This document shows, piece by piece, positions 12,052-37,132 of a DNA stretch of 52,211 bases. The notes below the pieces were generated by a model, which saw nothing but the letters and a program-made list of their open reading frames with translations, searched no databases and was not told where the DNA came from. This stretch comes from a virus (lineage: Duplodnaviria; Caudoviricetes): positions 1-52,211 of IMG/VR virus record IMGVR_UViG_3300033149_003773. The stretch is one strand, 5' to 3'. The translations under genes and the position numbers were made by a program. Positions within the stretch are counted from its first letter, which is position 1, and each line of letters opens with the position of its first letter.

Positions 12052-13230
12052 TTACTTTTGCACTTCTCTCATTTCTTTTATATTACTCATCGTCCAAAAA
12101 CCTTCAAAATCTGAATTTCTCAAGCTCCTTAGAAAGTCCAAATATTTAGAATTTAAATCATCGTCAATATCAAAAATCTGTTTTTTAATCTCCACTGCAA
12201 CAGGTAAAATACCCAACGGGGGGACTGCATTACCTATCTGCATTCTTACCTTGTTACGAGAACCGAAAAATACGAAATCATCAGGAAATGTCTGTAACCT
12301 TGCTCTTTCACGGTTCGTTAAAGGTCTTGGTTCTTCATAATGGTATCCATGTGTTCCGCCTCCACCATTAGCGATAACTGTATAAGCTGGTTCGTTTCTA
12401 TCAAGTTTTCTGTAAATATTACTCATTACACCCTTAATCTTTAAATGTTCAGGAAGATGTTTAAAGTTTCCACCTTCGGGAATGGCTCTAAGCATTTTTT
12501 TTACCTTATCTGAAACCTTGGGTAATTCATTATTATGTGAAACGAGTCCTACTTCCTTGAAGTATATGGCTTTTCCAGTAAAAGCTTCACCAGAAGAAAC
12601 ATAATTACCCTTGAAATATATAGGCTCTGGAAACACAAATTTCTTGCCTAAATCGTTTCTAATACCAATTATCAAAACTCTTTCACGTGTCTGCGGTACA
12701 CCATAGTCAGCAAAATTAACTTTATGAATAGAAACCGTGTATCTGTTGTTGGGGCATGAAATACCCTCTTTGTACATGTATACAGCCTCTTCCACAAAAT
12801 CAAAACTGTAATCATCATTAGTAGCTTCTGCTGGATTGGATAAGTCGTTGACTATCAAAGCTATGGCTTTACCATCGTTTGCACTTAGTATTCCCTTCAC
12901 GTTCTCTGCTATAAAAACCTTCGGTTCCTTATGAGCTATTATCTTCACAAGTTCTTTGTACAACCGTCCACGCTTTACATGTATGCCCCACCTCTTACCC
13001 AACATTGAAAAGTCCTGACATGGAAAACCACCTATCACGATATCCGCATCTGGTATATTATCAACACTTATGCTTGAAATGTCCCCCTGTATAACTTCAT
13101 GCTCAAAATTGGATCGATACGTTAAACATGCTTCTTTGAAAATGTCGTTTGCAAAAACAATGTCGTATCCAACAGCATAAAAACCTAAATCCATGCCTCC
13201 TGCACCCGAAAACAAACTGATTATCCGCAT
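12052..13230 (-). CDS. DNA (cytosine-5)-methyltransferase, orphan
   Basis: Motif I SLFSGAGGMDLG, IV GGFPCQDFS, VI ENV, VIII PQTRER, IX/X RERARLQTFPD and QIGNAVPP. Confidence 0.96.
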   Translation of the reverse strand: MRIISLFSGAGGMDLGFYAVGYDIVFANDIFKEACLTYRSNFEHEVIQGDISSISVDNIPDADIVIGGFPCQDFSMLGKRWGIHVKRGRLYKELVKIIAHKEPKVFIAENVKGILSANDGKAIALIVNDLSNPAEATNDDYSFDFVEEAVYMYKEGISCPNNRYTVSIHKVNFADYGVPQTRERVLIIGIRNDLGKKFVFPEPIYFKGNYVSSGEAFTGKAIYFKEVGLVSHNNELPKVSDKVKKMLRAIPEGGNFKHLPEHLKIKGVMSNIYRKLDRNEPAYTVIANGGGGTHGYHYEEPRPLTNRERARLQTFPDDFVFFGSRNKVRMQIGNAVPPLGILPVAVEIKKQIFDIDDDLNSKYLDFLRSLRNSDFEGFWTMSNIKEMREVQK

Positions 13231-13359: not shown

Positions 13360-13875
13360 ATAAGCATGTAATAGCTAACAGCTAATAATAAAAATAATAA
13401 TAAAAATAATAATATAGCTAATAGCTAATAGCTGACAGCTAACAAGCAGATAGCTAGCAAGCTTGGAACGTGCAACGTGTAGCATGTAGCACGTAACACA
13501 TAGCACATAGCACGTAGCACATAAACATAAAGCATGTAATAATAGCTAAGAGCTAAAGCATAATATAGCATGCTATAAGCTTGAGATAAAGCATATTTTT
13601 TTATGCTATATAGCTATTAAGGCATAGCATGCTTTAGCTATATAGCACGCTTTAGTTATTATTATTATTATCACTATTATATAGCTGGCACGTATAGCTA
13701 TAAAGCACATAGCATGCTATAAGGACATAGCATGCTTTAGCTGTATAGCATGCTTTTGTATAGCATGCTTTTATTATTTATTATTTATATTATTATCTCA
13801 TAGCATGCTTTAGCTGACAGCTAACAGCTAACAGCTAACAGCTAACGAGCTGGCAAGCTTGCAAGCTCCTGGCAT
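13360..13875. repeat. 7-nt-periodic, palindrome-rich intergenic repeat region between the divergent arms (candidate origin or control region)
   Basis: Tandem (AGCTAAC)n and (TAGCACR)n, many TAGCATGCT(A/T) and TAGCTA palindromes, AAT/TTA tracts; no ORF. Confidence 0.75.
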
Positions 13876-15749: not shown

Positions 15750-15822
15750 TTCTTGAGAATTTGAGAAACTGAGAATTCATCAATTCGAGAACTCGAGAAG
15801 TTGAGAATTTGAGAATTTGAAA
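15750..15822 (+). repeat. (TTGAGAAT)n 8-nt periodic leader array
   Basis: ttgagaat ttgagaaa ctgagaat tcatcaat tcgagaac tcgagaag ttgagaat ttgagaat, directly before the RBS. Confidence 0.8.
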
Positions 15823-16533: not shown

Positions 16534-16560
16534 CACGCTGTTTTTTGTTGTTTCATGACT

Positions 16561-16648
16561 TTATCAATTTGAGAAGTTGAGAATTTATCAATTCGAGAAT
16601 CTGAGAAGTCGAGAATTTATTAATTTGAGAATGAAAGGGGTTGAGAAT
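16561..16648 (+). repeat. (TTGAGAAT)n leader array
   Basis: About 10 units including ttatcaat variants, between a hairpin and the ATG at 16649. Confidence 0.8.
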
Positions 16649-21104: not shown

Positions 21105-21457
21105 GGGGGCGATCGGTTTCGACGGGTTTGAGCTCCCTCAGGAAGCGAGCCGAGTTTTCACCTACTCGTAAAACAGGGTGAGGCACAAACAAGTGCCAAC
21201 AAAGAACCAGTCGCTGCTTGACGAGAAGAGCAGCCGTCCTTACTGAGTTTGATCGGGGCTCAGTATAGGGCGTAAGATCACCGATCGGGCATCCAAGGTT
21301 TTGCCTTTTCGGCTTTGGATGACATGTTAGAAAAGGCTAAGGTGAATATAACCTGTCCGTGGGTTGTTTCACCTGACATTTAAAACACGGACTGCGCTCG
21401 GAGATGCCTGAGGGTACTCACTCTCGGACGGGGGTTCGATTCCCCCCGCCTCCACCA
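21105..21457 (+). ncRNA. ssrA: tmRNA (transfer-messenger RNA), tag peptide (A)ANKEPVAA*
   Basis: 5' GGGGGCG...TTCGAC, 3' T-arm GGGGGTTCGATTCCCCC and acceptor CGCCTCCACCA; resume context AAGT-GCC-AAC; tag ORF 21195-21221; layout like Thermotoga tmRNA. Confidence 0.97.
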
Positions 21458-22445: not shown

Positions 22446-22751
22446 ATGAAACATTCAAGAACACCTGTTAAGGCTTTGCTGTATATTATTGATGTTGTAT
22501 ATACTGAAAATGATGATGATTTCATTGTTTGTTATTATGCTGTGATAAAAAATGTGATAGAACATTTAAACGAAAAAGCAAAAAGAAATTTATTACGTGC
22601 TGAATGGAAAGCCCCAATAGCTGAAATTGAGTTTGTTGATTTTCAGGTTTATGATGATTGTATACTTGCTTGCGATAGCCGTGATCGCCTCTGGCTAAAA
22701 AGAAAAGGTTCACTCTGGTGGTTTTCAATGAGCAACGAATTCGTTTATTAA
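22446..22751 (+). CDS. hypothetical early protein, family C
   Basis: Paralog of 15095..15379. Confidence 0.75.
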   Translation: MKHSRTPVKALLYIIDVVYTENDDDFIVCYYAVIKNVIEHLNEKAKRNLLRAEWKAPIAEIEFVDFQVYDDCILACDSRDRLWLKRKGSLWWFSMSNEFVY

Positions 22752-22767
22752 AGGAGAGTGAGTTTAG

Positions 22768-23109
22768 ATGAAGGAGCTAAAAAAGTTTGTTATAAATAAT
22801 ATTTTTAGAAACTTAGACAAATCCTTTCCTCAAGAAGAGGAGCTCATAATCAAAAAATTTTCCTTCAAAGGCAAGAAAGTTGCTTGTGAAAAAGATTATC
22901 CTCATGTTCCTCACACTGTAAAGATGTATACAACTGTTAATGGGGATACCCTTGAGGAATTCTGTCTTGGCTGGGAAGGTAAAACTCTCGATAATACTCT
23001 ATTGGTAATATGGATTCAGGAATTTCTTCCACCAGATGAGAGCTTTAATTATGAACGGGTTCAAGGGTATTACATCATGCTTCCACTTCATTCGGTGATA
23101 CCTTCTTAA
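22768..23109 (+). CDS. hypothetical early protein, family D
   Basis: CEKDYPHVPHTV...EEFCLGWEG; paralog of 13943..14248. Confidence 0.75.
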   Translation: MKELKKFVINNIFRNLDKSFPQEEELIIKKFSFKGKKVACEKDYPHVPHTVKMYTTVNGDTLEEFCLGWEGKTLDNTLLVIWIQEFLPPDESFNYERVQGYYIMLPLHSVIPS

Positions 23110-23226
23110 TCAGAACAAGAGGAGGTGAATTAAAGAAGAAGCCGAAAAGCACTTTTAACAGAAAATACCAATTTTCCTTCCGTATACGGGTGGTATATAG
23201 TATAATTATATATGTATCCCAAAAGA

Positions 23227-23254
23227 TATGTTACAGACTCCCTTGTAAGTGGAG
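23227..23254 (+). promoter_or_regulatory. 28-bp conserved upstream motif, copy 2 (overlaps tasA RBS)
   Basis: tatgttacagactcccttgtaagtggag; TATAAT at 23201-23206 just upstream. Confidence 0.65.
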
Positions 23255-23262
23255 GTGATTAA

Positions 23263-23976
23263 ATGGGGAAAGGCAGGAAAAAGAAAATCACAAAGAAAGA
23301 GGAAAGTACTGTACAAGGTAAGATACTTACACCCGATCTTGAACGATTGCTACGGTCTTATATAGTTGTGCAAAGACAAAGGCTATCGGCAGAGCTAAGG
23401 ACACTTTCACTTGGTGGTGATGAAATTCTCGATAGGATGTTAGACATGGTCAAGCATGTGGAAAAGGAACTGGCAAAACAGATTCAGAAAAAGATAGAAA
23501 ACACAGAGTTGTATCATAACTTTTTTGCTCGAGTTAAAGGTGTGGGAACATCAACAGCAGCGAAGATAATCTTCTATGTAAAAGACATTGAACGTTTTCC
23601 TACGGTGTCGAAGCTGTGGCGTTATGCAGGGTATGGCGTTACAAACGGAAAAGCGGACACTTTGAGAAAAGGTGAAAAGTTGTGTTACAATCCACGATTC
23701 AAAGGCATGCTGTATTACACGGGTATACTGCTTATTAGCAAATCTAAGAAATATCGTGCATACTACGAAAAAGCGAAGGAGTATTACCGTATCAATAGAC
23801 CACAATGGAATAAGATGCACATATTTAGGGCGGCATTAAGAAAAACCATTAAGCTATTCTTATCACACCTATGGGAAGTTTGGCGAAAAATCGAGGGGTT
23901 ACCAGTTAGAAAGCCTTATGCGATAGAATACTGCGGGCATACCACGGTTTATAAGCCAGAAGATTTCTTTGATTAA
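23263..23976 (+). CDS. tasA: TIGR-associated protein, nuclease-less TasA type (Nop / IS110 Tnp-like RNA-binding fold)
   Basis: 237 aa: N-terminal coiled coil, VKGVGTSTAAKII, RFPTVSKLWRYAG, YNPRFK, HIFRAALRKTIKLFLSHLWEVWRKIEGLP...PY. No N-terminal RuvC/DEDD, no HNH and no IS110 catalytic SG; array directly downstream. Confidence 0.85.
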   Translation: MGKGRKKKITKKEESTVQGKILTPDLERLLRSYIVVQRQRLSAELRTLSLGGDEILDRMLDMVKHVEKELAKQIQKKIENTELYHNFFARVKGVGTSTAAKIIFYVKDIERFPTVSKLWRYAGYGVTNGKADTLRKGEKLCYNPRFKGMLYYTGILLISKSKKYRAYYEKAKEYYRINRPQWNKMHIFRAALRKTIKLFLSHLWEVWRKIEGLPVRKPYAIEYCGHTTVYKPEDFFD

Positions 23977-23989
23977 CCTTTCCCGATTA

Positions 23990-24200
23990 TGTGAACCTGC
24001 ATGTAATGAGACCCACGCAGAGATGTGAGCCTAAATACAATGATGTCCATCTGTACATAGCGAACCAGTATTCAATGTTTTCCATTTGAAAGTGTGAACC
24101 ATTTCTTTATGTGTGACCCAAAATTTTGTGTGAACCATCATATTGTGTGAGCCGATTTCTTGTGTGAACCATTCCTTTGTGTGACCCAATTCTCTTGTGT
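23990..24200 (+). ncRNA. TIGR-like tandem interspaced guide RNA array (12 repeats, 9-nt spacers, about 6 dual units)
   Basis: TGTGAACC-tgcatgtaa-TGAGACCC-acgcagaga-TGTGAGCC-taaatacaa-TGATGTCC-atctgtaca-TAGCGAACC-agtattcaa-TGTTTTCC-atttgaaag-TGTGAACC-atttcttta-TGTGTGACCC-aaaattttg-TGTGAACC-atcatattg-TGTGAGCC-gatttcttg-TGTGAACC-attcctttg-TGTGACCC-aattctctt. Confidence 0.85.
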
Positions 24201-24229
24201 GTCTTTTAAAAAGGGGAGGAGGTGTAAAA

Positions 24230-24559
24230 GTGATTTTGAAGTTTAGAACAGCGAGGGCGGGTTTAAAGTTGAAATTAATCTTAGAGATGTCATATGTGTG
24301 TGAAGCCGAACGTGTGCTTATTGAAAGAGAATTTAGAAAATGTTGCTGGTTTGATCCTGGTAATTCATTCATCATAAAGGAATTTGACATGGGCAAGTCT
24401 ACACCAGATAAGATATTTAGAAAAATAAGAAAAACCATTGACAAAGTGGTTGCTAAGTTGGAAAAGACATACAAGCGTTTCTATGATAGCTTTTCAGACA
24501 TTATCTGGTTTTCAGAGGTAAGTCTGATTCCAAGATCAAGGGGTGAGCTAAATGATTAG
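24230..24559 (+). CDS. hypothetical protein
   Basis: GGAGGAGG RBS before the GTG at 24230. Confidence 0.6.
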   Translation: MILKFRTARAGLKLKLILEMSYVCEAERVLIEREFRKCCWFDPGNSFIIKEFDMGKSTPDKIFRKIRKTIDKVVAKLEKTYKRFYDSFSDIIWFSEVSLIPRSRGELND

Positions 24560-24695
24560 CTTCTTTATTGGCTTGATTGTAGGTGGTATTAGTGGTTTAA
24601 TGGTGTCCAGTTTGCTATTTGCATCTTCGGATACTTTATATCAAGAAAATAGGCAATTACGTAATAAATTAAAGAGATTAAAAGGGGGTGAATGA
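24552..24695 (+). CDS. small membrane protein (47 aa)
   Basis: MISFFIGLIVGGISGLMVSSLLFA followed by a basic coiled tail; below the ORF-track cutoff. Confidence 0.55.
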   Translation: MISFFIGLIVGGISGLMVSSLLFASSDTLYQENRQLRNKLKRLKGGE

Positions 24696-24705
24696 GGTGC
24701 AAAGC

Positions 24706-30253: not shown

Positions 30254-30577
30254 ATGGGTAGGAAAAAATATGAAGCCAGTCTAAAAAGAGTGGTTAGCTC
30301 AGAAAGCTACAAAATCGATCCTGAATTGGTAATGATACTTTATCGGCTTGGAAAGTGGGTAAGAGAAGGCAAAATTGAACCATTTGAATTAACCGAGGAA
30401 GAACTTTTAGAATTGTCTACAACAAAAGAGAAACACATGAGGGGTATAGACAATGAAGAATTGTCTATAACAGAGAAAAAGCTCGCAGAGTGCATAGACA
30501 ACGCTGAAAAGGAATTGCTGAGTATCGTGAGAAAGAAATATGAACAAACAAATAAAAAGACGGAAAGGGGAGTGTAA
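30254..30577 (+). CDS. hypothetical protein
   Basis: AGGAGGGG RBS before MGRKK. Confidence 0.6.
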   Translation: MGRKKYEASLKRVVSSESYKIDPELVMILYRLGKWVREGKIEPFELTEEELLELSTTKEKHMRGIDNEELSITEKKLAECIDNAEKELLSIVRKKYEQTNKKTERGV

Positions 30578-30581
30578 TGCT

Positions 30582-31547
30582 ATGGCTTATTCATATTCAC
30601 AATTAAGAACGTATTTATATTGTCCACAAAGATATAGGTTTCATTATATCGAGGGTCTATCGGAAGATACATCAGATATTCTCGAAAGAGGAATAGTTGT
30701 TCATGAAGCAATAGCGAAAAATGATCCTAAACTTGTAATGGAAGATATTGAAAATTACGTAATGTTTCAAAATGCCAGAGAATACCTAAGTTTTGTCAAA
30801 CCAATAGCTTTTGAAGTAAAGCTGGGTATTACAAAGGATTTCAAACCTGCACCATATCAGGACGCATTTTTTCATGGCATAGTTGATGTAATATATGAAG
30901 GAGGATTGCTTGATTGGAAAACAGGACAGTCCAAACCCGATGCACTTCAGCTATTGTTAAATGCTCTGATTGCACGTATAAATGGGTATACAATAAATGA
31001 AATAACTTACGTTTATCTACACAGTAATACATCTTCAGCAACGCCATACACAGATGAAATGCTCGAAGATACAAAGGATGCGCTTTTATCACTTGTTGAA
31101 GACATTGAAAATGATACAACATTCGAGGCTCGTCCTTCACATAAGTGCTATTACTGCCCGTATGCTGAGCAATGCGTTGAAAGTCTGGGCGAAAGTGTGC
31201 AAGATAAACTCAAAAAATTTATCATTACTAAAAAATACAATAAACGGTTACGGGAAGAGCTAAAAGAATACATTAAGCAAACAAATAAGGAAGTTCAATT
31301 TGAGAACTTTGCATTTTCACATGAAAGGACGGTATGCTATCGCTGTAAAGATAAAGATTTGCTGAAAGCAAGGCTTAGCGAAGAAGGAAAACTTATAGAT
31401 TTAGCAGATATACCATCACAATATTATGAGACATTGCACAGAGAAGGATATGATGATATAATAAAGCCTTATCTCAGAAATAGTTACACTTTGATTGAAA
31501 AAGGAATGGATACGTATGATATTCATAGTGTACATACCATAAGTTAG
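30582..31547 (+). CDS. Cas4-like PD-(D/E)XK exonuclease
   Basis: SYSQLRTYLYCP, G..VH, GIVD...DWKTG, QL, and CYYCPYAEQC (four-Cys Fe-S pattern). Confidence 0.88.
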   Translation: MAYSYSQLRTYLYCPQRYRFHYIEGLSEDTSDILERGIVVHEAIAKNDPKLVMEDIENYVMFQNAREYLSFVKPIAFEVKLGITKDFKPAPYQDAFFHGIVDVIYEGGLLDWKTGQSKPDALQLLLNALIARINGYTINEITYVYLHSNTSSATPYTDEMLEDTKDALLSLVEDIENDTTFEARPSHKCYYCPYAEQCVESLGESVQDKLKKFIITKKYNKRLREELKEYIKQTNKEVQFENFAFSHERTVCYRCKDKDLLKARLSEEGKLIDLADIPSQYYETLHREGYDDIIKPYLRNSYTLIEKGMDTYDIHSVHTIS

Positions 31548-35665: not shown

Positions 35666-37132
35666 TTAAAATTTATTGAGATAAGGTCCGTAATAGGACA
35701 TAAGCTGGAGACAGAAAATTTGAGTACTACCATATGGTATTCCATAGATTTTACCATTGGGTGCAAGGACGCCACCATTCCATTTATTATCTCCAGATAG
35801 ACTTCCAAACAAAGTTAGTTGTTGCGTTTCAGGGTCTATCTCTAAAACTTGGGTACTAAAACATGGTACTCCATAAATTTTTCCGTTTGGTGCTAATACT
35901 CCACCAAGCCATTTAACTGCATCGGAAGATAAACTTCCAAATAAAGTTGTAGATTGTGTCTCGGGGTTAATTTCTAATACCTGCGTGCTATTTCGTGGTA
36001 TTCCATAGATTTTGCCGTTGGGAGCGAGAACACCACCCCACCATTTACCACCTCCGGGCAAACTACCAAATAAAGTTAGCTCATGCGTTTCGGGATTGAT
36101 TTCTAAAACTTGCGCGCTACTATATGGTATTGCATATATCTTTCCGTTAGATGCTAAGACTCCACCTGTCCATTTAGCTACATCAGAAGATAGATTACCA
36201 AACAAAGTTAGTTCGTGTGTCTCTGGGTCTATTTCCAAAACTTGTTCACTATTATACGGCATTCCGAAAATTTTTCCATTAGGTGCAAGAACACCTCCGC
36301 ACCATTTATAATCTCCGTCGAGATTTCCAAACAAAGTTGTATTTTGCGTCTCGGGGTCGATCTCTAACACCTGCGTGCTACTATGCGGTATTGCGTATAT
36401 CTTACCGTTGGGAGCGAGAACACCACCACGCCATTTACCCGTTCCAGTTAGGCTTCCAAACAAAGTTACATTTTGTGTCTCTGGGTCTATTTCCAGTACC
36501 TGCGTGCTGTTATTTGGTATAGCATAAATTTTGCCGTTGGGAGCGAGGACGCCACCTGCCCACTTAAGTGCTCCACTCAAATTTTCAAACAGACTAACAA
36601 ACTTCATCGTTGGGTCGGTATCGAGAATGTTAATGCTTTTTGCTCGTATTTCGTTAGCATGCTTTCCGTCTAACATATCGGCGTTAAGCCCTTCTACGAG
36701 CTTACCCCGCGCGTTCGTTCCGAGAGAGAACGGCGCGTCTGGAGTATCTATTGTGTGCTGTGCTGTTATGGTTGTCGGTGTATCTTTCTTTACCATGGCA
36801 TTATCCAAACCATCTATGCTATTTTGTAAAGCATTGATGTCTTCTGCATCAACGTAGTCTCCTTTTGTTTTATAAGTAGCATACAACTCAACACCATCAT
36901 ATGTGGGTGAAAAAGTTACAGTATTGTATGTTTTAAAAAAGTTATCATAGTCACCAATAGTATAGTCTGTTCCCTCTATCAACTGAGTGCCCGTCTTACC
37001 TGCCTGTGTCCATATCTCTAAATCAAAAAAGTTATCATGTGCAAGATGTTGAGGTGCAGTAGAACCATAAATAATTTCGTCAGTTACTTGCGTTCCTGAC
37101 TCATTGTAGTTAAATTTATCCACAAAGATCAC
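35666..37132 (-). CDS. tail fibre / receptor-binding protein with 7-bladed beta-propeller
   Basis: LNADMLDGKHA fibre motif, then seven 43-44 aa repeats KWxGGVLAPNGKIYxIPxxSxQVLEIDPET. Confidence 0.75.
   Translation of the reverse strand: MIFVDKFNYNESGTQVTDEIIYGSTAPQHLAHDNFFDLEIWTQAGKTGTQLIEGTDYTIGDYDNFFKTYNTVTFSPTYDGVELYATYKTKGDYVDAEDINALQNSIDGLDNAMVKKDTPTTITAQHTIDTPDAPFSLGTNARGKLVEGLNADMLDGKHANEIRAKSINILDTDPTMKFVSLFENLSGALKWAGGVLAPNGKIYAIPNNSTQVLEIDPETQNVTLFGSLTGTGKWRGGVLAPNGKIYAIPHSSTQVLEIDPETQNTTLFGNLDGDYKWCGGVLAPNGKIFGMPYNSEQVLEIDPETHELTLFGNLSSDVAKWTGGVLASNGKIYAIPYSSAQVLEINPETHELTLFGSLPGGGKWWGGVLAPNGKIYGIPRNSTQVLEINPETQSTTLFGSLSSDAVKWLGGVLAPNGKIYGVPCFSTQVLEIDPETQQLTLFGSLSGDNKWNGGVLAPNGKIYGIPYGSTQIFCLQLMSYYGPYLNKF

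What the first reader, a model, noticed from the sequence alone, without database searches (positions are those of the whole stretch)
23263..24200. Phage-encoded RNA-guided system: nuclease-less Nop-fold protein plus a dual-repeat guide array (TIGR-TasA-like)
Seen: a 237-aa protein with the IS110-Tnp/Nop fold motifs (VKGVG..TAA.I, F..VSKLWRYAG, YNP..K, H..RA.RK..KLFL.HLW..WR..EGLP) but no RuvC, HNH or catalytic serine loop. Fourteen bases after its stop begins an array of twelve 8-10-nt TG..CC repeats separated by 9-nt unique spacers. Odd repeats are mostly TGTGAACC-like and even ones vary (TGAGACCC, TGATGTCC, TGTTTTCC, TGTGACCC), giving alternating repeats and about 6 two-spacer units. Known: this matches TIGR-Tas systems, where arrays are processed to roughly 36-nt tigRNAs whose two spacers pair with opposite DNA strands; Nop-only TasA has no established function. 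Inference: this is a compact, possibly thermostable programmable DNA binder used to repress host or competitor genes. The family is already described; this instance and its targets may not be.
Basis: partly seen in the sequence, partly recalled or inferred. Interest (0 to 1): 0.95.

Follow-up and report, generated by a model that had tools for sequence, protein, structure and literature searches.

The report
Phage TIGR-TasA guide-RNA system
A complete 52-kb phage genome carries a real example of the recently described TIGR-TasA system, a small nuclease-free protein plus an array of six short guide RNAs that should steer it to chosen DNA sites; it is a new member of a known family, and its guide units are slightly shorter than usual.

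Summary
tasA (23263-23976, 237 aa) is followed 13 bases later by 12 full repeats and one truncated repeat (23990-24203).

The protein is a solo-Nop Tas protein:
- It scores 146 bits against NCBIfam TIGR_Tas_endo (cut-off 100).
- It matches the TaTasR structure 9mty by sequence at E 1.3e-29.
- An AlphaFold model (pLDDT 91.5) has TasR and TasH as its best fold matches.
- It has no RuvC or HNH domain.
- It keeps the Tyr/His pair that SpTasH uses to cut pre-tigRNA.

The repeats read UGNNNNCC(A), which is box D plus box C as in TaTasR. Conserved edge repeats (UGUGAACC) alternate with variable loop repeats. This gives six units of 34-36 nt, each with two 8-nt spacers.

The 17-nt half-period is shared with the closest relatives (46-47% identity). 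Most other relatives have 36-nt units.

No target was found in the phage, in five related viral records, or above background in the viral collection. The host is unknown, and nothing supported Thermotogota.

The most likely function is RNA-guided DNA binding or repression without cleavage. That is inferred from 2025-26 papers and was not tested here. Verdict: known family, new member, modest interest.

The parts
23180..23262 (+). Upstream region of tasA. It holds the palindrome CCGTATACGG (23180-23189), a -10-like TATAAT (23201-23206) and the ribosome-binding site GGAGGTGA (23251-23258). It is a possible promoter of the module.
   Evidence: The consensus scan listed no + strand sigma-70 site here, so the promoter is a guess. 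Related contigs in runs X1/X3 stop resembling the window upstream of 23194, and X7 upstream of 23207. The shared module therefore starts here.
23263..23976 (+). tasA: a 237-aa solo-Nop TIGR-associated protein. Residues 1-22 form a Lys-rich tail, about 24-78 a coiled-coil hairpin, and about 82-237 the Nop/RNA-binding domain with Y219 and H226.
   Evidence: NCBIfam NF052498 scores 146.1 bits against a cut-off of 100. PDB 9mty_A (TaTasR) matches at E 1.3e-29, with query residues 26-233 aligned to chain residues 110-319. The AlphaFold2 model has pLDDT 91.5. Foldseek's top matches are 9mty (TMq 0.76), then TasH, then IS621.
23990..24203 (+). Dual-repeat TIGR array: 12 full repeats plus a 3'-truncated edge repeat, making six guide units.
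23994..24027 (+). Predicted tigRNA 1 (34 nt). Spacer A is GCAUGUAA and spacer B is CGCAGAGA.
   Evidence: Boundaries are placed by analogy with TaTasR tigRNA1, which is cut as UGCG|AGCCA (Table S3 of PMC12045711). The sequence was printed. The boundaries are inferred, not measured.
24028..24062 (+). Predicted tigRNA 2 (35 nt). Its 3' edge repeat is degenerate, reading UAGCG where UGCG or UGUG is expected.
   Evidence: inferred.
24063..24096 (+). Predicted tigRNA 3 (34 nt).
   Evidence: inferred.
24097..24132 (+). Predicted tigRNA 4 (36 nt). It has two extra bases (UG) before the loop repeat.
   Evidence: inferred.
24133..24166 (+). Predicted tigRNA 5 (34 nt).
   Evidence: inferred. A relative at about 94% identity (run X7) has a net 24-25 extra bases inside 24134-24165.
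24167..24201 (+). Predicted tigRNA 6 (35 nt). It ends in the truncated edge repeat.
   Evidence: inferred.

Best explanation
This is a dual-repeat TIGR-TasA system carried in the early/replication gene block of a complete phage with direct terminal repeats.

Proposed mechanism:
1. tasA and the array are transcribed together on the + strand.
2. A TasA dimer binds the box D (UG) and box C (CCA) ends of the repeats in the precursor.
3. The Tyr219/His226 pair on the C-terminal loop cuts inside each conserved edge repeat (UGUG|AACCA).
4. This releases six guides of about 34 nt, each carrying two 8-nt spacers around a loop repeat.
5. Each guide directs the dimer to a 16-bp DNA site that reads spacer A followed by the reverse complement of spacer B. 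One spacer pairs with each strand.
6. Because the protein has no nuclease domain, the result is binding and bending that blocks transcription or replication of a host or rival-element gene, not cleavage.

Shown here: protein family and fold, absence of a nuclease, array architecture, conservation of the array type in relatives, and phage context. Inferred from the literature: co-transcription, self-processing, guide length, DNA binding and repression.
For: Protein:
- NCBIfam TIGR_Tas_endo scores 146 bits against a cut-off of 100. The IS110 models score 29.7 against 140 and 16.5 against 180.
- By sequence, TaTasR (9mty) matches at E 1.3e-29 and SpTasH at E 1.1e-11.
- The AlphaFold2 model has pLDDT 91.5 and pTM 0.85.
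- Foldseek ranks 1-10 are all TasR or TasH chains (TMq 0.62-0.76), followed by IS621.
- Y219 and H226 align with SpTasH Y289 and H296 (alignment). Those are the processing residues named in PMC13421893 (passages). H226 is at least 90% conserved across 41 sequences.

No nuclease:
- Only 25 residues precede the part that aligns with TaTasR residue 110.
- Pfam finds no HNH or RuvC domain in the protein, nor in the 39 neighbouring ORFs scanned.
- Only 1 relative was found among proteins of 416-2000 aa.

Array:
- The repeats match TaTasR's published edge UGCG|AGCCA and loop UGAAACCCA (Table S3).
- Positions 3 and 6 can pair in 5 of 6 edge repeats (U-A, U-G) and in 2 of 6 loop repeats. In relative L024 the figures are 8 of 9 against 0 of 6, including C-G. 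This is the published edge/loop distinction.

Relatives:
- The strongest periodicity is exactly 36 nt, above the maximum of shuffles, in 57 of 80 viral loci and 22 of 28 genome loci. Across all loci with above-null periodicity, it lies a median of 154 nt (viral) and 128 nt (genome) from the gene.
- L005, L006 and L024 (46-47% identity) have UGNNNNCC chains at 17-nt spacing, starting 18-24 nt after the end of the protein match.

Context: the record is a complete virus with 114-bp terminal repeats and terminase, portal, capsid and tape-measure genes.

Function: TasA binds processed guides (PMC12045711, section read). TasA represses transcription in a guide-dependent way (preprint 10.64898/2026.09.09.750476, section read).
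Against: - No target was found.
  - The phage has no 16-mer site with 2 or fewer mismatches; shuffled spacers give 0.67 on average.
  - Five related viral records give counts similar to the reversed-pattern control.
  - Exact 16-mers in the viral collection gave 1, 26 and 78 hits, against 1 for a wrong-geometry control of the first.
- No terminator follows the array (0 found), although one is described as typical.
- One edge repeat (24058-24066) has a broken box D.
- The three distal units carry T-rich spacers that look alike, so part of the array may be decaying.
- Repression has been shown only for stem-loop TasAs (MbTasA). For a dual-repeat TasA (FpTasA) only RNA binding is published.
- The 2025 paper concluded that Tas proteins do not cut pre-tigRNA themselves. 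Self-processing is shown only for SpTasH.
Confidence: 0.85

Rival explanations
1. The same TIGR-TasA particle acts not as a repressor but as an RNA-guided architectural factor. It would bend DNA by about 180 degrees to help replication, recombination, packaging or partition of the phage.
For: The gene sits just upstream of the replication/recombination block: Sak4-like protein, primase-helicase, RusA and a PD-(D/E)XK exonuclease. The 2025 paper raises DNA bending and ParB links as possibilities.
Against: The phage has no site matching its own guides better than shuffled guides do. No ParB-like gene and no integrase were found among 65 ORFs scanned with PHROGs and 39 scanned with Pfam.
Confidence: 0.08
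2. The array is a decaying relic. TasA is made, but few or none of the six guides are functional.
For: Edge repeat 5 has a disrupted box D. Unit lengths vary (34, 35, 34, 36, 34, 35). Spacers 7-12 are T-rich and resemble one another. No terminator was found and no target was found.
Against: Box C (CC) is intact in 12 of 12 repeats and box D (UG) in 11 of 12. The same array type is kept in relatives whose proteins are only 46-47% identical. Contigs at about 94% identity in other runs keep the array with few changes. By a fixed-register test the spacers are not significantly more alike than shuffles (P 0.30).
Confidence: 0.05
3. The protein is a truncated IS110-family transposase remnant, and the neighbouring repeats are unrelated low-complexity DNA.
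For: Pfam's only hit above cut-off is Transposase_20 (26 bits against 21.3). PHROGs labels the best family 'transposase'.
Against: The IS110 NCBIfam models score far below their cut-offs, while the Tas model is above its own. There is no DEDD domain. The best fold and sequence matches are TasR and TasH, not IS621. The repeat density and regular spacing are far beyond chance and recur next to relatives.
Confidence: 0.01
4. It is a box C/D-like system that guides RNA modification, with TasA in the role of Nop5, rather than a DNA-targeting system.
For: It has the Nop fold and box C/D-like motifs. TIGR and snoRNPs are evolutionarily related.
Against: No fibrillarin or L7Ae was found among the ORFs scanned. 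The match to Nop5 (1nt2_B) is weak, at E 1.3 and TMq 0.32. The repeats are too short to hold k-turn motifs.
Confidence: 0.01

Closest known systems
TaTasR with its TIGR array (Thermoproteota archaeon; PDB 9mty; Faure et al. 2025, PMC12045711)
   Same: It is the closest solved relative of the Nop and coiled-coil part (E 1.3e-29, 32% identity in the fold alignment). The repeat code is nearly the same: edge UGCGAGCCA against UGUGAACCA here, and loop UGAAACCCA against UGAGACCCA or UGUGACCCA here. Both are dual-repeat arrays located after the gene.
   Different: TaTasR has an N-terminal RuvC nuclease of about 109 residues that is absent here. Its spacers are 9 nt and its guide 36 nt, against 8 nt and about 34 nt here.
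FpTasA (Flavonifractor plautii), the published dual-repeat TasA
   Same: It is a solo-Nop protein with a dual-repeat array, and it was shown to bind processed guides.
   Different: I did not compare the sequences directly, because none was available to me. FpTIGR is reported with 18 variable bases per guide, against 16 here.
MbTasA and PlTasA (stem-loop TasAs; 2026 preprints 10.64898/2026.09.09.750476 and 10.64898/2026.08.11.744272)
   Same: They are nuclease-free Tas proteins. They are the source of the functional evidence: guide-dependent DNA binding and reversible transcriptional repression.
   Different: They use stem-loop guides and lack the C-terminal Tyr/His processing loop. The protein here keeps that loop and uses dual repeats.
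SpTasH (Salicola phage CGphi29)
   Same: It is phage-encoded, has 8-nt spacers (Table S3) and has the Tyr289/His296 self-processing dyad, which aligns with Y219/H226 here.
   Different: It has an HNH nuclease, 10-nt repeats with different box letters, and a 36-nt guide.
IS110/IS621 bridge-RNA recombinases
   Same: They share the Nop-like RNA-binding domain (Foldseek E 1.5e-4, TMq 0.56).
   Different: They have a DEDD catalytic domain and a single bridge RNA. The IS110 family models score far below their cut-offs here.

Membership tests
TIGR-Tas (Tas protein) | Nop domain plus coiled-coil dimerisation hairpin, homologous to TasR and TasH | tested here: met
   NF052498 scores 146 bits against a cut-off of 100. 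9mty matches at E 1.3e-29. The model has pLDDT 91.5 with helices 24-50 and 54-78. The top Foldseek matches are TasR and TasH.
TasA subtype | No HNH or RuvC nuclease domain fused to the Nop domain | tested here: met
   Only 25 residues lie N-terminal of the region aligned to TaTasR 110-319. Pfam shows no nuclease domain. None was found in the 39 neighbouring ORFs. Close relatives are mostly 220-270 aa. Only 1 longer relative was found.
Dual-repeat TIGR array | Two alternating short repeats (8-12 nt) separated by spacers of about 9 nt, next to tas | tested here: met
   There are 12 repeats plus a truncated one at 17-nt spacing, starting 13 nt after the stop codon.
Dual-repeat TIGR array | Every repeat starts with box D (UG) and ends with box C (CCA) | tested here: met
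   UG is present in 11 of 12 repeats, CC in 12 of 12 and CCA in 9 of 12.
Dual-repeat TIGR array | Edge repeats carry an extra base pair that loop repeats lack | tested here: met
   Positions 3 and 6 can pair in 5 of 6 edge repeats against 2 of 6 loop repeats. In L024 the figures are 8 of 9 against 0 of 6, with U-A, U-G and C-G types.
Dual-repeat TIGR array | [quoted passage not shown] This is described as typical, not as obligatory. | tested here: inconclusive
   A truncated TGTGTC is present at 24198. No terminator-like site was found in 22700-24700. The next gene's ribosome-binding site follows within 20 nt.
Dual-repeat TIGR system | Tyr/His processing dyad on the C-terminal loop | tested here: met
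   Y219 and H226 align with SpTasH Y289 and H296. H226 is at least 90% conserved in 41 sequences. Catalysis was not tested.
Dual-repeat TIGR system | A 36-nt guide unit, called 'uniform' or 'fixed' in the 2026 preprint | tested here: not met
   Units are 34, 35, 34, 36, 34 and 35 nt, and the modal half-period is 17. This is a described property, not a defining one. TIGRFinder itself allows 8-10-nt spacers.
TIGR-Tas | The array is transcribed and processed into Tas-bound guides, and the guides direct DNA binding through tandem spacers | not testable with these tools
   This needs small-RNA sequencing and binding assays.
IS110 transposase | DEDD (RuvC-like) catalytic domain and a score above the family cut-off | tested here: not met
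   NF033542 scores 29.7 bits against a cut-off of 140, and NF051857 scores 16.5 against 180. Pfam finds no DEDD domain.
Box C/D sRNP (Nop5) | Fibrillarin and L7Ae partners; guides with k-turns | tested here: not met
   Neither partner was found among 65 ORFs scanned with PHROGs or 39 scanned with Pfam. The Nop5 fold match is weak.

The most novel reading that the evidence does not exclude
This phage and its nearest relatives (L005, L006, L024) may form a small clade of dual-repeat TIGR-TasA systems whose natural guides are 34 nt, with 9-nt TaTasR-type repeats and two 8-nt spacers. They would recognise only 16 bp.

That would show that the 36-nt guide length, described as fixed by the reach of the Tyr/His dyad, is not a hard geometric constraint. 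It would also provide a very compact (237 aa) binder from a phage whose relatives occur in vent and sediment samples and may be thermostable.

Close copies at about 94% identity sit on high-depth contigs of runs labelled with an organism rather than a metagenome. If so, the natural role of a TasA could be tested in a cultured host.
Probability: 0.5. Interest if true: 0.45.

Novelty: new member of a known kind. Interest (0 to 1): 0.3.

Why it matters
TIGR-Tas systems were described in 2025. The natural role of the commonest form, TasA, is still open: the 2026 preprint says native-host studies are needed and that targets are hard to find.

This instance adds four things:
- A complete phage genome as context.
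- A TasA that is the nearest nuclease-free relative of the structurally solved TaTasR and uses almost the same repeat code.
- A conserved 34-nt unit, which departs from the stated uniform 36 nt.
- Near-identical copies in runs labelled with organisms, which might allow work in a natural host.

It does not change what is known about how the family works.

Tried and rejected
- **Homodimer prediction**: no verdict (score 0.06 against a mark of 0.42). It counts neither for nor against dimerisation.
- **Expression:** no RNA holder was listed among the 12 runs, so nothing can be said about transcription or processing.
- **Host:**
  - Relatives cannot be drawn for a virus record.
It gave 28 loci, none from Thermotogota; the best was Ornatilinea at 39%.
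  - Terminase and capsid searches against named phages gave only distant hits of mixed hosts, at or below 39% identity.
  - The phage tmRNA matched named phages and plasmids only over short 3'-terminal stretches, at most 24% of its length.
  - The host therefore stays unknown.
- **Habitat:** only the laid runs count. Pieces at 90-99% identity occur in one sediment and one hydrothermal-vent metagenome run (X1, X2) and in two runs with coded organism names (X3, X7).
- **Self-targets:**
  - 18-mers with up to 4 mismatches showed nothing beyond three control arrangements.
  - 16-mers showed nothing.
- Matches within the array itself showed nothing.
- **Targets in five related viral records:** the best hit was a 2-mismatch match of unit 2 inside an ORF of G001. 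Reversed-pattern controls gave similar counts.
- **Exact 16-mers in the viral collection:**
  - Unit 1 gave one hit, which also matched 18 of 18 bases, in a locus with 59% G+C. The wrong-geometry control also gave one hit.
  - Unit 3's 78 hits include one redundant family of about 30 near-identical loci.
  - No contig was hit by two units.
- **Shared spacers** between this array and L024: none (P 0.58).
- **Duplication of units** within this array: not significant (P 0.30).
- **Coiled-coil length:** I considered that a shorter coiled coil might explain the 8-nt spacers. I dropped the idea because TaTasR (9-nt spacers) aligns with only 3 extra residues there.
- **The 2025 Table S1:** this protein's own peptide is not in the stored part of the table, which is cut.
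- **PADLOC:** no hit.
- **Earlier notes on this genome:** none, and no look-alike sequences.
Full report
**What is there**

The window is a whole virus record of 52,211 bases, rated 100% complete, with direct terminal repeats. The repeats are 114 bp. PHROGs finds terminase small and large subunits, portal, protease, major head, decoration and tape-measure genes on the minus strand. On the plus strand it finds a replication/recombination block: Sak4-like protein, primase-helicase, RusA and an exonuclease.

It lies in the plus-strand block among small genes of unknown function, about 1.8 kb upstream of the replication genes.

**The protein**

- Pfam gives only a weak Transposase_20 hit, and PHROGs calls the family 'transposase'.
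- NCBIfam's curated model NF052498 (TIGR-Tas system RNA-guided endonuclease) scores 146.1 bits against a cut-off of 100. The IS110 models score 29.7 and 16.5 against cut-offs of 140 and 180.
- Against solved structures, the best sequence match is chain 9mty_A at E 1.3e-29, with query residues 26-233 aligned to chain residues 110-319. That chain is 331 residues long, the length the 2025 paper gives for TaTasR, and Foldseek titles the entry TIGR-TasR. SpTasH follows at E 1.1e-11.
- An AlphaFold2 model built from a 41-sequence alignment has pLDDT 91.5 and pTM 0.85. It shows a two-helix hairpin (24-50, 54-78) followed by a helical domain.
- Foldseek ranks TasR and TasH chains first (TMq 0.62-0.76), then the IS621 recombinase. 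Nop5 appears only weakly.
- Only 25 residues, a Lys-rich tail of low confidence, stand where TaTasR has its RuvC domain.
- No nuclease domain was found in the protein or in 39 neighbouring ORFs.
- The name attached to the NCBI model ('endonuclease') would therefore be wrong for this protein. It is a TasA.
- Y219 and H226 align with Y289 and H296 of SpTasH. PMC13421893 names these as the catalytic residues for pre-tigRNA maturation.
- The helix SHLWEVWRK (H202, W204, W207, R208) is invariant in the alignment. It resembles the His/Trp cluster that stacks on the box C adenine in PlTasA. I did not test residue-by-residue equivalence.

**The array**

- Thirteen bases after the stop codon, 12 repeats and a truncated thirteenth occupy 23990-24203.
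- Eleven repeats are exact TGNNNNCC words, spaced 17 nt apart in 8 of 10 intervals.
- The window holds 97 such words on this strand. No other 215-nt stretch, and none of 200 Markov genomes (maximum 6), comes near the 11 found here.
- Table S3 of the 2025 paper gives TaTasR tigRNA1 as AGCCA, a 9-nt spacer, UGAAACCCA, a 9-nt spacer, then UGCG. TaTasR's edge repeat is therefore UGCG|AGCCA and its loop repeat UGAAACCCA.
- The odd repeats here (UGUGAACCA and variants) are close to the TaTasR edge repeat, and the even ones (UGAGACCCA, UGUGACCCA and more variable forms) to its loop repeat.
- The base after CC is A in 9 of 12 repeats. The repeats are therefore 9 nt and the spacers 8 nt.
- The published distinction is that edge repeats have one extra base pair and loop repeats do not. 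It holds here: positions 3 and 6 can pair in 5 of 6 odd repeats and 2 of 6 even repeats. In relative L024 the figures are 8 of 9 and 0 of 6, with U-A, U-G and C-G variants.
- This fixes the phase: six units. If each is cut as in TaTasR, the guides would be 34, 35, 34, 36, 34 and 35 nt.
- Three irregularities stand out. There is a one-base insertion in the box D of edge repeat 5. Two extra bases precede loop repeat 8. No terminator follows the array; the next gene's ribosome-binding site follows directly.

**Relatives**

- The word-indexed search found 314 relatives with E up to 0.001 among 811 candidates. Most of the 120 listed are 220-270 aa.
- The exhaustive search of cluster representatives found 3,553 with E up to 0.001, 1,295 up to 1e-10 and 76 up to 1e-30. 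The nearest is at 55% identity and the next at 42%.
- I fetched 80 viral loci (of 97 confirmed) and 28 genome loci. The strongest periodicity was exactly 36 nt, above the maximum of shuffles, in 57 of the viral loci and 22 of the genome loci. Across all loci with above-null periodicity, it lay a median of 154 and 128 nt from the gene. Fourteen viral and 4 genome loci did not exceed the null.
- Chains of UG(N4-5)CC repeats were found in 28 of 109 sources. The modal spacing was 18 in 23 of them and 17 in 4: the window, L005, L006 and L024. L005/L006 are near-duplicates of each other and share most spacers with L024.
- The 17-nt half-period is therefore a trait of this small clade.
- Neither of the two Zhang-laboratory papers mentions a 34-nt unit in its main text. 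The 2026 preprint calls the dual-repeat guide 'uniform' and 'fixed' at 36 nt, although its finder allows 8-10-nt spacers. I could not see the supplementary figures.
- The Tas protein of L024's contig is listed in Table S1 of the 2025 paper, so the clade has been catalogued. This protein's own peptide was not in the stored, truncated part of that table.

**Mechanism**

The order of steps in my best explanation follows the literature:
- Guides are bound and trimmed to unit length (section read).
- The two spacers pair with opposite strands.
- The target strand reads spacer A followed by the reverse complement of spacer B. I verified this from the oligonucleotides in Table S3.
- SpTasH processes its own guides with the Tyr/His dyad.
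- TasA binds DNA and represses transcription in a guide-dependent way.

None of these steps was tested for this locus.

**Targets and host**

- No guide matches the phage's own genome better than controls, and none matches the array itself.
- Five related viral records gave no signal above the reversed-pattern control. The best hit was a 2-mismatch site for unit 2 inside an ORF of G001.
- Exact 16-mers in the viral collection gave 1, 26 and 78 hits for units 1-3. A wrong-geometry control for unit 1 also gave 1 hit. Unit 3's hits include one redundant family.
- The preprint expects exactly this difficulty for such short spacers.
- The host is unknown. None of the 28 genome loci is from Thermotogota.
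- Two things hint at a warm habitat. First, the IVYWREL fraction is 0.418 over 14,074 residues. A relation I recall from Zeldovich et al. 2007 (OGT = 937F - 335) turns that into about 56 C. Second, the tmRNA gene has 53.5% G+C in a genome of 37.6%.
- Pieces at 90-99% identity lie in one sediment and one hydrothermal-vent metagenome run.
- Contigs of 21 kb and 8 kb at high depth, in two runs labelled with coded organism names, carry tasA plus the array at about 94% identity. One of them has a net 24-25 extra bases inside unit 5.
- All of these contigs stop resembling the window upstream of 23194-23207, at the -10-like TATAAT.

**Verdict**

It is a new member of a known family, with a modest variation in unit length.

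Noticed in passing
window 21105-21457 (+): The phage carries a full-length tmRNA gene (Rfam RF00023, 181.5 bits, model positions 1-374). ARAGORN reads the tag peptide as ANKEPVAA. Its G+C is 53.5%, against 37.6% for the genome. Named phages and plasmids match only short 3'-terminal stretches (at most 24% of the query), so it gave no clue to the host.
   Followed up: partly
window 23194-23207: Related contigs in four public runs lose similarity to the window upstream of this point, which coincides with a -10-like TATAAT. The tasA-array module appears to have its own left boundary, with different genes upstream in relatives.
   Followed up: partly
window 24134-24165, compared with run X7: A contig at about 94% identity has a net 24-25 extra bases inside guide unit 5. 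Array content therefore differs between close relatives. I could not fetch that contig's sequence.
   Followed up: partly
loci L009, L056, L058, L059, L102, L111: In 6 of 23 non-redundant UG...CC arrays from relatives, the spacers within one array are more alike than shuffled spacers (P of 0.05 or less, z down to -4.3). This fits array growth by duplication of units. The window's own array shows no such signal (P 0.30).
   Followed up: partly
L114 1501-1516 (IMGVR_UViG_3300050175_000026): This is the only exact match in the viral collection to the predicted 16-bp target of guide 1, and it extends to 18 of 18 bases. It lies inside a 216-aa ORF in a locus with 59% G+C. A wrong-geometry control word also gave one hit, so it is probably chance.
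   Followed up: yes
window 13383-13851: A cluster of short tandem repeats with periods 7-21 (AGCTAAC, TAGCACATAGCAC... and others) lies in the gap between the diverging minus-strand and plus-strand gene blocks. It may be an origin or regulatory region.
   Followed up: no
window 15753-15820 and 16560-16648: TTGAGAAT is repeated 8.5 times, and a 32-nt unit containing GAGAAT is repeated 2.4 times. Both lie among the early small genes.
   Followed up: no
window 35666-37129 (-): A 487-aa ORF is built from 129-nt tandem repeats (6.4 copies) and matches the Pfam DUF6923 repeat.
   Followed up: no
window 30540-31544 (+) and 12052-13227 (-): The first ORF is a PD-(D/E)XK exonuclease with a weak Cas4-domain match; it sits in the recombination block with Sak4 and RusA. 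The second is a C-5 cytosine DNA methyltransferase. Nothing links either gene to the array.
   Followed up: no
window 23263-23328 (TasA residues 1-22): TasA has a Lys-rich N-terminal tail (MGKGRKKKITKKEE...) with pLDDT around 60. In the blocks of the alignment that were printed (every second sequence), no relative has it.
   Followed up: no
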